From: a virus
Length of the DNA stretch: 34,385 nt
Reading direction: 5' to 3' (one strand)
UHGV virus genome: UHGV-0351038
Under the pieces are notes generated by a model, which worked only from the letters and a program-made list of their open reading frames with translations, was not told where the DNA came from and did no database searches. How positions within the stretch are numbered: the stretch's first letter is position 1; the number at the start of each line of letters is the position of its first letter. A program made the translations under genes and the position numbers. Below are positions 23,889-24,884 of the stretch, in pieces.

Positions 23889-24593
23889 TTATCCGATATC
23901 GCTTCGGGAAGTTGATAACAACTTCAATTCTGACTCAAGTTCATCAAATCTTTCAGTCAGTTTCTGGATATGGTGAATCAGTGGAACAACCAGACGTTCG
24001 TACATTACACCTTCGGCAACAAGGCCATTGCTGGAAATAGCTTCCGGTGCATCATCTTCGTTAGCTGATCGCCAGTGTACAAACTGGGGGGCAATTTCTC
24101 CTACTTCCTCGGCAATCAATCCATAGAATCCCCAATCGCGCCTGTCATTTTCGCATTGCGACCTGTACCACACAGGGCGCATCCTGAAAATGAGATCGGC
24201 GTGCTCTGAATCTATCGTCTCTACTGAATGTTTATAGCGGATAGACGATGTTGACCGCAGCACAGACGAAATTGCAGGGTCAGGATTAAGATAAAGGTTT
24301 GCCGCCGCTGTAGTCGTGCCCAATCCCCACAAATAAAACGCTTCACGGCCAGTCAACGGGTAAAAATCTCCACCATAACGACCGCTTTCCAGAGCGTTCA
24401 CTTCCAGTTTGTTTTTCAGCTTATTATCAACTTCAGTTTTTGTGTATCTGGTGCTGATATCCTGCTTTGCACTGGTCATATCAGCCTGAAGCGTTGATAC
24501 TTTTCCGTTAATTGAGGAAATATCTTCCTTGGCTTTACTGACATCTCCCTTTAACGTGGTGATGTCTCCTGGAATTACTGTCGATGTAGCCAT
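23889..24593 (-). CDS. Tail-fibre-associated protein: N-terminal coiled coil plus C-terminal intramolecular-chaperone (peptidase S74-like) domain
   Basis: N-terminus heptad-like (LKGDVSKAKEDISSINGKVSTLQADMTSAKQDI); C-terminal part has ...SSIRYKH... and ...GLIAEEVGEIAPQFV... resembling the chaperone domain of tail spikes/fibres. Not lambda Tfa-like. Confidence 0.4.
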   Translation of the reverse strand: MATSTVIPGDITTLKGDVSKAKEDISSINGKVSTLQADMTSAKQDISTRYTKTEVDNKLKNKLEVNALESGRYGGDFYPLTGREAFYLWGLGTTTAAANLYLNPDPAISSVLRSTSSIRYKHSVETIDSEHADLIFRMRPVWYRSQCENDRRDWGFYGLIAEEVGEIAPQFVHWRSANEDDAPEAISSNGLVAEGVMYERLVVPLIHHIQKLTERFDELESELKLLSTSRSDIG

Positions 24594-24602
24594 TTGTCTC
24601 CC

Positions 24603-24884
24603 TCACATCCAGCCACGAAGTTGATGTTCAACTACAACCGCGTATTCATCGAATATTGACGATTTTTTTGCATCATTAATGATGCGCACGTTTACAAAAT
24701 ATCCATCTTCCTTAACACATACCGGTTCGCCATCTTCAGTCAGTTCTCCGGTTTCTTTGTACACGTTACCTATCACGTCAATAAGAATATCATCCTGCAT
24801 CGACTCGTCATCATAATAGCCAATGCTATCCATAAAGGCCGAAAAGTCGGCCCTGTCTGCAAATTTGAGTGTTAAATCTTTCAT
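24603..24884 (-). CDS. Hypothetical acidic protein (93 aa) downstream of the fibre gene
   Basis: ATG overlaps the stop of the fibre gene; no family recognised. Confidence 0.4.
   Translation of the reverse strand: MKDLTLKFADRADFSAFMDSIGYYDDESMQDDILIDVIGNVYKETGELTEDGEPVCVKEDGYFVNVRIINDAKKSSIFDEYAVVVEHQLRGWM

What the first reader, a model, noticed from the sequence alone, without database searches (positions are those of the whole stretch)
23889..24884. No lambda-type Tfa; instead a 93-aa acidic protein and a 234-aa coiled-coil protein with an S74-like intramolecular chaperone domain
Downstream of the fibre gene, where tfa is expected, are two ORFs unrelated to lambda Tfa. The larger one has a heptad-repeat N-terminus and a C-terminal region resembling the self-cleaving chaperone domain of tail spikes (SSIRYKH, GLIAEEVGEIAPQFV). 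It may be a second receptor-binding protein or a remnant of a swapped fibre module.
Basis: partly seen in the sequence, partly recalled or inferred. Interest (0 to 1): 0.4.

Follow-up and report, generated by a model that had tools for sequence, protein, structure and literature searches.

The report
Two-part phage side tail fibre
The two small genes after the tail-fibre gene are real: one is a small partner protein that always travels with this type of fibre, the other is a short, swappable second fibre piece with a self-cleaving folding domain, an arrangement already described in related phages.

Summary
On the minus strand a 790-aa side tail fibre gene (24884-27256) is followed by a 93-aa acidic protein (24603-24884), a 234-aa protein (23889-24593) and a 97-aa membrane protein (23585-23878). 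No Tfa-like gene is present. The 234-aa protein passes Pfam Peptidase_S74 (27.4 bits, cut-off 22). Its Ser116/Lys121 pair is invariant in homologues, and its model matches the MyRF ICA domain, a relative of the phage fold. It also has six clean N-terminal heptads.

It is not a remnant. dN/dS is 0.12-0.23, and 55-60% identical homologues of about 230 aa sit in the same position in virulent phages. It is one of two alleles (234 and 346 aa) of a cassette inserted between the 93-aa and 97-aa genes. Both alleles share only a roughly 15-20 residue N-terminus and the chaperone domain. Phage 21 lacks the cassette.

The same three-gene layout (proximal fibre, about 92 aa, distal fibre with an intramolecular chaperone domain) is described for the T5-like phage IrisVonRoten. 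The most likely reading is a minimal distal or branch subunit of a two-part fibre. The 93-aa protein is tied to the fibre's C-terminal module and is probably its assembly partner. This is a new member of a known kind, of modest interest.

The parts
24884..27256 (-). Proximal side tail fibre, 790 aa. It has an N-terminal phage_tail_N attachment domain, an Ala/Ser/Thr-rich repeat shaft and a C-terminal module of about 430 aa (residues ~362-790) ending in ...RHLFGHVRNFRIWHKALTD...
   Evidence: Pfam phage_tail_N, residues 1-131, E 1.5e-68. NCBIfam GTA_spike_fiber, residues 434-634, E 1e-13. phrog_1419 matches full length. PDB 9e7m_Ta 'Tail fiber protein' matches residues 1-94 at E 2e-47. The C-terminal module is 42-62% identical in phage 21, Lambda_2E9, IrisVonRoten Gp22, KarlJaspers gp37 and JeffSchatz gp26.
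24603..24884 (-). 93-aa acidic protein (pI 4.17), translationally coupled to the fibre gene. Proposed cognate assembly factor or structural partner of the fibre's C-terminal module.
   Evidence: phrog_1361, E 8e-47, function unknown; no Pfam or NCBIfam family. Found in 181 phage records, and directly after a tail-fibre gene in every listed row that carries annotation. About 50 clusters at 50% identity, the full-length ones about 85-110 aa, with no fusions to fibre proteins. AlphaFold2 pLDDT 82.7, a compact alpha/beta fold. The only fold matches are weak or to uncharacterised proteins.
23889..24593 (-). 234-aa distal or branch fibre subunit with a C-terminal S74 intramolecular chaperone domain (whole gene, stop codon included).
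   Evidence: Pfam PF13884 above its cut-off. RefSeq names it 'tail fiber domain-containing protein'. dN/dS is 0.12-0.23.
24546..24593 (-). Codons 1-16, MATSTVIPGDITTLKG: the conserved N-terminal segment shared by all genes in this slot. Proposed docking peptide.
   Evidence: The same start, M-x-T-x-T-x-I-P-x-D-I-x-x-L-K, occurs in the 234-type and 346-type alleles, ESCO3, IrisVonRoten Gp24, KarlJaspers and the other ~230-aa phage homologues. DNA homology to Tritos ends at window 24550, about codon 15.
24396..24563 (-). Codons 11-66: heptad-repeat stalk, probably a trimeric coiled coil.
   Evidence: 11 of 12 a/d positions are hydrophobic in residues 11-49. AlphaFold2 predicts a helix over 12-47. 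There is a weak match to the trimeric coiled coil of P22-type tail needle gp26, 4lin.
24249..24395 (-). Codons 67-115: short tip segment that would form the C-terminal end of the mature protein after cleavage.
   Evidence: pN/pS 0.15. 68% mean identity across the ~230-aa family. From about residue 85 onward the sequence is also found at the C-terminal end of longer Stf-like fibres P0033-P0036, P0041 and P0044. The monomer model has low confidence here, as expected for a segment that folds only as a trimer.
23892..24248 (-). Codons 116-234: S74 intramolecular chaperone domain. Ser116 is at 24246-24248 and Lys121 at 24231-24233. The domain ends in a heptad helix (198-232).
   Evidence: Pfam match over 116-172. 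S116, K121, G158, I160, A161 and P169 are invariant in 32 sequences. Foldseek: MyRF ICA domain 7dc3, E 2.3e-4, probability 1.0; endoNF chaperone 3gw6 and T5 pb1 4uw8 rank next, weakly.
23585..23878 (-). 97-aa predicted membrane protein, last gene of the cluster. It forms the right-hand border of the S74 cassette. Function unknown.
   Evidence: phrog_1443, E 1.8e-58, unknown function. In phage 21 it is annotated 'putative membrane protein, 2 TMDs' and directly follows the 92-aa gene. It follows the distal gene in 63 of the 71 IMG/VR loci with a complete distal gene.

Best explanation
The locus encodes a two-part side tail fibre of a phage-21-like lambdoid phage.

The 790-aa protein is the proximal fibre. 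Its N-terminus attaches to the tail tip, and it ends in a lectin-like C-terminal module.

The 93-aa protein is translationally coupled to the fibre. It is inherited together with the fibre's C-terminal module and most likely acts as that module's assembly factor or bound partner, taking the role Tfa has in lambda. This is inference.

The 234-aa protein is a minimal distal or branch subunit. Three chains would be brought together by the C-terminal S74 chaperone domain (116-234). That domain would template folding of the short tip (67-115) and the coiled-coil stalk (11-66). Ser116/Lys121 would then cut the chain before Ser116, releasing a 13.8-kDa chaperone fragment and leaving a 115-residue (12.4-kDa) mature chain. 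The conserved N-terminal ~16 residues would dock the trimer onto the end of the proximal fibre or onto the 93-aa protein.

What is shown: the domain identity, the catalytic pair, the heptads, the cassette behaviour, the selection and the synteny. What is inferred: trimerisation, cleavage, docking and receptor binding.
For: 1. The S74 domain is genuine. Pfam passes its cut-off. The Ser/Lys pair is invariant. Foldseek matches the MyRF ICA domain, and the phage chaperone structures rank next. DT57C LtfA is matched over the cleavage region, LQGTSGIEYKKDV against LRSTSSIRYKHSV.

2. The same gene order is seen in IrisVonRoten: Gp22 796 aa, Gp23 92 aa, Gp24 574 aa. PMC11990801 predicts that Gp24, with its IMC, attaches to the proximal fibre, which carries a galectin-like C-terminal domain. 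Gp22 is 53% identical to the window fibre over residues 130-790.

3. Of 80 IMG/VR loci, 77 have a gene starting MATSTVIP..., always 10 nt after the 93-aa gene; the other three end at the contig edge. There are 45 of the 234-aa type and 32 of the 346-aa type. A conserved N-terminal piece with a variable remainder is the hallmark of exchangeable receptor-binding proteins.

4. The Tritos fibre is 97% identical to the window fibre, yet Tritos carries the other allele, about 21% identical. The distal gene is therefore exchanged independently of the fibre.

5. Phage 21, Lambda_2E9 and the rV5-like JeffSchatz have the fibre module plus the small protein but no S74 gene. The fibre therefore does not need the S74 protein, and the 93-aa protein goes with the fibre.

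6. Purifying selection acts on every segment. Homologues of about 230 aa, 55-60% identical, occur in virulent phages.

7. The tip plus chaperone part also ends longer Stf-like fibres.
Against: - The mature part is very small. Only about 50 residues lie between the coiled coil and the cleavage site, little room for a receptor-binding domain.
- That tip is conserved (68% mean identity) rather than hypervariable, unlike typical O-antigen binders.
- No multimer modelling could be run, so trimerisation and docking are untested. Residues 59-127 of the monomer model have pLDDT below 50.
- I found no virion proteomics or cleavage data for any member of this short family.
- Depositors of some virulent phages call it a 'putative lateral tail fiber chaperone'.
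- The function of the 93-aa protein rests on genomic association only. Fold searches gave nothing informative.
Confidence: 0.62

Rival explanations
1. The 234-aa protein is a free-standing, trans-acting assembly chaperone for the 790-aa fibre and is not part of the virion. In this reading the S74 domain works between molecules rather than within one.
For: Depositors annotate homologues as 'putative lateral tail fiber chaperone' or 'chaperone of endosialidase'. The protein sits where tfa would be. The non-chaperone part is small, and the tip is conserved rather than variable.
Against: - The same fibre C-terminal module is encoded without any S74 gene in phage 21, Lambda_2E9 and JeffSchatz.
- A 97%-identical fibre is paired with a quite different protein in the same slot in Tritos. 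A client-specific chaperone would not be swapped this way.
- The N-terminal segment is shared with large distal fibre proteins, including IrisVonRoten Gp24, which is predicted to attach to the proximal fibre.
- From my own knowledge of the family, all characterised S74 domains act in cis on the chain they belong to. The papers read here describe them as autocleavable C-terminal domains of the fibre protein itself.
Confidence: 0.12
2. The 234-aa protein is a structural cap with no receptor-binding role. It is a short 'blank' allele that occupies the docking site at the end of the proximal fibre, for example to stabilise it or to modulate its lectin-like domain.
For: The mature part is minimal, at 115 aa. 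The tip is conserved across very different phages, including ones grown on O-antigen-less K-12. The proximal fibre already carries its own candidate binding domain.
Against: The tip plus chaperone cassette is also used as the distal end of longer Stf-like fibres, which is the position of a binding tip. The tip is under purifying selection as strong as that on the chaperone core (pN/pS 0.15 against 0.14). This reading overlaps the best explanation in everything except receptor binding.
Confidence: 0.18
3. The 234-aa ORF is a decaying remnant of a longer fibre gene, left behind by module exchange.
For: It aligns end to end with the last ~238 positions of the 1385-position profile phrog_3299. Related prophages carry tfa fragments further downstream (the 'tail fiber assembly protein' features listed for H10-H15).
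Against: - dN/dS is 0.12-0.23 over 20 distinct alleles.
- The gene has its own strong Shine-Dalgarno and a fixed 10-nt spacing.
- The catalytic pair is invariant.
- The same length is conserved in virulent phages.
- No homologue longer than about 410 aa appeared in the 5.8-billion-protein search.
- Its N-terminus is the slot-specific anchor, not an internal fibre segment.
Confidence: 0.03

Closest known systems
IrisVonRoten (Bas32, T5-like) lateral tail fibre locus Gp22-Gp23-Gp24, described in PMC11990801
   Same: The gene order is identical: a fibre of about 790 aa with the same C-terminal module (53% identity over residues 130-790), then a 92-aa homologue of the 93-aa protein (37% identity), then, after a 9-nt gap, a protein starting MxTxTVIPxDIxxLK and ending in an S74 chaperone domain.
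   Different: Gp24 is 574 aa with two predicted receptor-binding domains ('T-shaped'). The window protein has only a coiled coil and a tip of about 50 residues before the chaperone domain. The host phage is a virulent T5-like phage, not a temperate lambdoid one.
Branched L-shaped tail fibres LtfA/LtfB of T5-like phages DT57C and DT571/2 (PMC4728585, PMC10713586; PDB 8hqz)
   Same: A second fibre protein with a conserved N-terminal docking segment and a C-terminal autocleavable S74 domain rides on the first fibre protein. LtfA is the best solved-structure sequence match to the 234-aa protein (E 6.5e-7), covering both the YTKTEVD repeat and the cleavage region.
   Different: In DT57C both proteins are large and both carry S74 domains. 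The paper as read mentions no small acidic partner gene between them; I did not inspect the DT57C genome. The LtfB docking segment is of the phiEco32 gp15 type; I did not obtain it to compare with the MATSTVIP motif. Here the proximal fibre has no S74 domain.
Endosialidase / T5 pb1 C-terminal intramolecular chaperone domain (Peptidase_S74, PF13884; PDB 3gw6, 4uw8) and its eukaryotic relative, the MyRF ICA domain (7dc3)
   Same: Pfam membership, an invariant Ser/Lys pair in the S-x-x-x-x-K spacing, a C-terminal position after a trimeric fibre segment, and a terminal heptad helix. The best fold match is 7dc3.
   Different: The passenger part is unusually short, and the whole protein is only 234 aa. 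Position 2 of the motif is Ser rather than the Asp seen in the 346-aa allele and in IrisVonRoten Gp24 (SDRDLK, SDSRLK). Cleavage has not been shown for this family.
Lambda Stf/Tfa side tail fibre system
   Same: The position after J and lom is the same, and so is the N-terminal fibre attachment domain. PF08400 matches residues 1-131. The phage 21 record notes BLASTp similarity of its fibre to lambda orf-401.
   Different: There is no Tfa homologue. The fibre's C-terminal half is a different, lectin-like module, accompanied by the unrelated 93-aa protein and an optional S74-bearing second subunit.

Membership tests
Peptidase S74 / C-terminal intramolecular chaperone domain (PF13884) | Profile match above the curated threshold | tested here: met
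   27.4 bits against a cut-off of 22, E 4.3e-6, residues 116-172 to profile positions 1-57 of 58.
Peptidase S74 / C-terminal intramolecular chaperone domain (PF13884) | Catalytic Ser and Lys five residues apart (S-x-x-x-x-K) at the start of the domain | tested here: met
   S116 and K121 are invariant in the 32- and 40-sequence alignments. They align with SGIEYK of DT57C LtfA.
Peptidase S74 / C-terminal intramolecular chaperone domain (PF13884) | Fold of the chaperone domain | tested here: inconclusive
   The monomer model has mean pLDDT 61.8. Foldseek matches MyRF ICA 7dc3 at E 2.3e-4, probability 1.0 and 26% identity. The phage structures 3gw6 and 4uw8 reach only E ~0.5-0.7. The direction is right, but a trimer model is needed.
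Peptidase S74 / C-terminal intramolecular chaperone domain (PF13884) | Lies C-terminal to a trimeric fibre or spike segment of the same chain | tested here: met
   The domain occupies residues 116-234 of 234. It is preceded by six heptads and a tip segment.
Peptidase S74 / C-terminal intramolecular chaperone domain (PF13884) | Autoproteolytic release after trimer folding | not testable with these tools
   Needs expression of wild type against S116A/K121A. The expected fragments are 12.4 and 13.8 kDa.
Lambda-type tail fibre assembly protein Tfa | Sequence match to a Tfa or Caudo_TAP family | tested here: not met
   There are no such hits for the 93-, 234- or 97-aa proteins in Pfam (E up to 1) or NCBIfam.
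Two-part or branched lateral tail fibre (proximal fibre plus docked distal subunit) | Distal-subunit gene directly downstream of the proximal fibre gene in one operon | tested here: met
   Gaps of 9-10 nt with Shine-Dalgarno sites, and no terminator-like site inside the cluster. The layout matches IrisVonRoten, Tritos, ESCO3 and KarlJaspers.
Two-part or branched lateral tail fibre (proximal fibre plus docked distal subunit) | Conserved N-terminal docking segment with an exchangeable remainder | tested here: met
   MATSTVIPxDIxxLK is shared by the 45 loci of the 234-aa type and the 32 of the 346-aa type, and by phages of other families. Homology breaks at about residues 15-22.
Two-part or branched lateral tail fibre (proximal fibre plus docked distal subunit) | Physical attachment of the distal subunit to the proximal fibre in the virion | not testable with these tools
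   No multimer prediction tool was available, and I found no proteomics for this family.
Two-part or branched lateral tail fibre (proximal fibre plus docked distal subunit) | A receptor-binding domain in the distal subunit | tested here: inconclusive
   Only about 50 residues (67-115) are available. They are conserved rather than variable, but they are re-used at the distal end of longer fibres.
phrog_1361 (small protein following fibres with the lectin-like C-terminal module) | Full-length profile match and position immediately after such a fibre gene | tested here: met
   E 8.3e-47, residues 1-93 to profile positions 1-92 of 92. The start overlaps the fibre stop codon. The same adjacency holds in every phage locus I examined and in the annotated rows.

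The most novel reading that the evidence does not exclude
The 234-aa protein could be a free-standing S74 chaperone that works in trans. It would dock by its N-terminal peptide onto the end of the 790-aa fibre or onto the 93-aa protein, help that fibre fold or keep it capped, and then cut itself off. Such an intermolecular use of a domain known only as an intramolecular chaperone would make the 93-aa protein plus the MATSTVIP peptide a general docking socket, shared by lambdoid, T1-like, T5-like and 9g-like phages.
Probability: 0.1. Interest if true: 0.6.

Novelty: new member of a known kind. Interest (0 to 1): 0.3.

Why it matters
The module shows how lambdoid prophages of E. coli vary host recognition without a Tfa-type chaperone. 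A constant proximal fibre and its small partner carry an exchangeable, self-folding second subunit.

The shared 15-20 residue N-terminal peptide is found in temperate and virulent siphoviruses. The 93-aa partner also reaches rV5-like myoviruses. Together they form a natural plug-and-socket that could be used to retarget phage particles.

The 93-aa family has no known function and would be worth a direct experiment.

For genome annotation the result is simple. The 234-aa gene is a functional fibre component and not debris, and the 93-aa gene should be annotated with the fibre.

Tried and rejected
- **Solved-structure sequence search.** Searches for the 93-aa protein returned only chance-level hits.
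- **Exhaustive HMMER search with the 93-aa protein.** I looked for fusions to fibre or S74 proteins. There were none. The three hits longer than 1,000 aa are multiple short stretches of about 25-30 residues and not domain fusions.
- **Literature.** I found no paper on this module in lambdoid phages or phage 21 and no virion proteomics covering the short S74 protein. The base-editing delivery paper deals only with lambda-P2 fibre chimeras.
- **First structure job.** I rebuilt the alignment without them.
- **Long fused ancestor.** The phrog_3299 match to the end of a 1385-position profile suggested one, but the 5.8-billion-protein search returned no homologue longer than about 410 aa. I treat that PHROG as a mixed cluster.
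- **Regex error.** My first pattern for the S74 motif missed the 346-aa allele, which reads SDRDLK. The alignment shows that it does have the domain.

Full report
**1. What is there**

The window is E. coli lambdoid phage DNA. The stretch 23500-27300 is 100% identical to the chromosome of strain FDAARGOS_1283, and 299 complete E. coli genomes hold at least 80% of it.

On the minus strand the order is:
- J (28075-31554)
- an Ail/Lom protein (27408-28007)
- a 790-aa fibre (24884-27256)
- a 93-aa ORF (24603-24884)
- a 234-aa ORF (23889-24593)
- a 97-aa ORF (23585-23878)

The plus-strand sitABCD genes (20044-23493) come next.

The four fibre-cluster genes are tightly packed. The 93-aa start overlaps the fibre stop. 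The next two genes follow after 9 and 10 nt, each behind a strong Shine-Dalgarno sequence. A terminator-like hairpin lies between lom and the fibre gene, and none lies inside the cluster.

None of the three small proteins matches a Tfa family.

**2. The 234-aa protein carries a real S74 chaperone domain**

- Pfam Peptidase_S74 is matched above its curated cut-off: 27.4 bits against 22, residues 116-172.
- In alignments of 32 and 40 homologues, Ser116 and Lys121 are invariant. They have the S-x-x-x-x-K spacing of the family's catalytic pair.
- The best solved-structure sequence match is LtfA of the T5-like phage DT57C (8hqz_d, E 6.5e-7). It aligns over the cleavage region and also over the YTKTEVD repeat.
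- An AlphaFold2 monomer model has mean pLDDT 61.8. It shows a long helix over residues 12-47 and a reasonably confident C-terminal domain (block pLDDT about 60-85 from residue 131). Residues 59-127 are poorly modelled, as expected for a part that folds only in a trimer.
- Foldseek places the model next to the MyRF ICA domain (7dc3, E 2.3e-4, probability 1.0). That domain is the eukaryotic relative of the phage chaperone domain. The endosialidase chaperone 3gw6 and T5 pb1 4uw8 rank next, but weakly.
- Cleavage before Ser116 would give a 115-residue mature chain (12.4 kDa) and a 13.8-kDa released fragment.

**3. It is not a remnant**

Twenty distinct nucleotide alleles of the 234-aa type were collected from related loci. 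Against the window they give dN/dS of 0.12-0.23. Every segment is constrained, with pN/pS of 0.18 for the anchor, 0.50 for the coil, 0.15 for the tip and 0.14 for the chaperone domain.

Proteins of 221-269 aa with the same layout, 55-74% identical, are found in E. coli phage and metagenome contigs. They include many virulent phages of about 50 kb, such as KarlJaspers (Drexlerviridae), PeterMerian, BEBK14, Jahat_MG145, SECphi27 and JK16. Across this short family the tip (68% mean identity to the window) is about as conserved as the chaperone core (72%). It is more conserved than the coil (47%).

**4. It is a swappable cassette in a defined slot**

Of 80 IMG/VR loci that encode a close homologue of the 93-aa protein, three end at the contig edge. 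The other 77 have a gene starting exactly 10 nt after it with MATSTVIP-x-DI-x-T-LK. There are 45 of the 234-aa type and 32 of a 346-aa type. The 97-aa gene follows in 63 of the 71 loci with a complete distal gene.

The 346-aa type also ends in an S74 domain (SDRDLK ... GVIAQE) but is otherwise unrelated, at about 21% identity. Phage Tritos carries this type, and ESCO3 carries a closely similar 351-aa version.

DNA homology between the window and Tritos stops at window 24550, about codon 15 of the 234-aa gene. The Tritos fibre is 97% identical to the window fibre. The distal gene is therefore exchanged independently of the fibre.

The same N-terminal peptide opens the corresponding gene in the 9g-like phages ESCO3, JenP1 and JenP2, in the ~50-kb virulent E. 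coli phages, and in the T5-like IrisVonRoten.

**5. The cassette is optional, and the 93-aa gene is not part of it**

Phage 21 itself has the fibre, a 92-aa homologue, then directly the 97-aa membrane protein and sitDCBA, with no S74 gene. The same holds for the Jouyvirus record Lambda_2E9.

In the rV5-like myovirus JeffSchatz, a 1479-aa fibre ends in the same C-terminal module, 44% identical to window residues 362-790. A 110-aa homologue of the small protein follows it. The next gene has neither the anchor nor an S74 motif.

The 93-aa family occurs in 181 phage records across lambdoid, 9g-like, T5-like, rV5-like and other coliphages. In every listed row that carries annotation it sits directly after a tail-fibre gene. 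In a search of 1.84 billion representative proteins the family has only about 50 clusters. The full-length ones are about 85-110 aa, and none is fused to a fibre.

Its model is confident (pLDDT 82.7) and shows a compact alpha/beta fold. Fold searches are uninformative.

The association therefore points to the fibre's C-terminal module as its partner. I infer that it is that module's assembly factor or a bound component, filling the place of Tfa. This is inference from co-inheritance and translational coupling only.

**6. Comparison with what is known**

The BASEL phage papers describe lateral tail fibres made of one large protein or of two or more proteins, conserved only at the far N-terminus (PMC8594841).

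For IrisVonRoten they predict that the distal 'T-shaped' fibre Gp24, with a C-terminal IMC, attaches to a proximal fibre carrying a galectin-like C-terminal domain (PMC11990801). That locus (Gp22 796 aa, Gp23 92 aa, Gp24 574 aa) is collinear with the window locus, and all three proteins are homologous at least in part.

Branched fibres with an S74-bearing second subunit docked by its N-terminus were shown genetically for DT57C LtfA/LtfB (PMC4728585).

The window therefore holds a lambdoid-phage member of a known architecture. Its distinguishing feature is a very small distal subunit: anchor, six heptads, a tip of about 50 residues, and the chaperone domain. RefSeq already names it 'tail fiber domain-containing protein'.

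**7. Mechanism and rivals**

The best-supported reading (about 0.6) is a minimal distal or branch subunit. It would fold in cis with the help of its own S74 domain, cut itself at Ser116 and dock through residues 1-16.

- **Trans-acting chaperone for the 790-aa fibre (about 0.1).** The fibre module exists without the gene, and the gene is swapped under an unchanged fibre.
- **Cap without receptor binding (about 0.2).** This cannot be separated from the main reading by sequence. The small, conserved tip favours it. The reuse of tip plus chaperone at the end of longer Stf-like fibres argues for a binding tip.
- **Decaying remnant (0.03).** The evidence is against it.

**8. Verdict**

The locus is a new member of a known kind, already partly annotated in public records, and of modest interest.

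The uncharacterised 93-aa family and the shared docking peptide are the parts most worth an experiment.

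Noticed in passing
window 17991-20044: The excisionase-like gene (17991-18242) and the integrase gene (18262-19557) lie directly next to sitA (20044). The window therefore has the gene order of the excised or virion form (J-stf-sit-att-int-xis-...-Q-lysis) rather than that of an integrated prophage. None of 5,426 complete E. coli genomes holds this junction in one piece; the matches from the integrase side end at about window 19867. In strain FDAARGOS_1283 the sitA side abuts a truncated ydfJ.
   Followed up: partly
window 20044-23493: The iron/manganese transporter genes sitABCD are phage cargo placed between the fibre cluster and the attachment site, exactly as in phage 21 and Lambda_2E9.
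   Followed up: partly
window 23585-23878 (minus strand): A 97-aa predicted two-helix membrane protein (phrog_1443, function unknown) closes the fibre cluster in lambdoid phages whether or not the S74 cassette is present. It is absent after the homologous modules of KarlJaspers, IrisVonRoten and JeffSchatz.
   Followed up: partly
window 27275-27304 (minus strand): A strong terminator-like hairpin (13 pairs followed by a T run) sits between lom and the fibre gene. The phage 21 record also annotates a terminator just upstream of its fibre gene. Expression of the fibre cluster may therefore depend on read-through.
   Followed up: no
window 9380-10686 (minus strand): Adjacent genes for a HAD-family hydrolase (9380-10024) and a NUDIX hydrolase with a Nudix_N domain (10048-10686) lie in the phage early/nin region. 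This is unusual cargo, and its role was not examined.
   Followed up: no
window 15447-17921 (plus strand): An 824-aa protein upstream of xis/int carries a C-terminal Rv2179c-like 3'-5' exoribonuclease domain (residues 642-814, E 2e-63). The first 640 residues have no Pfam match.
   Followed up: no
window 26300-26970: The Ala/Ser/Thr-rich SETNAK-type repeats of the fibre shaft create long spurious ORFs in other frames and on the opposite strand (222 aa, 146 aa). These should not be taken for genes.
   Followed up: no
L006 (phage PhiR49_1) 7092-7226; hits H10-H15: Related prophages with the same fibre/93-aa/234-aa/97-aa cluster carry a short tfa fragment or an annotated 'tail fiber assembly protein' further downstream. 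This is a likely trace of an older Stf/Tfa module displaced by the present one.
   Followed up: no
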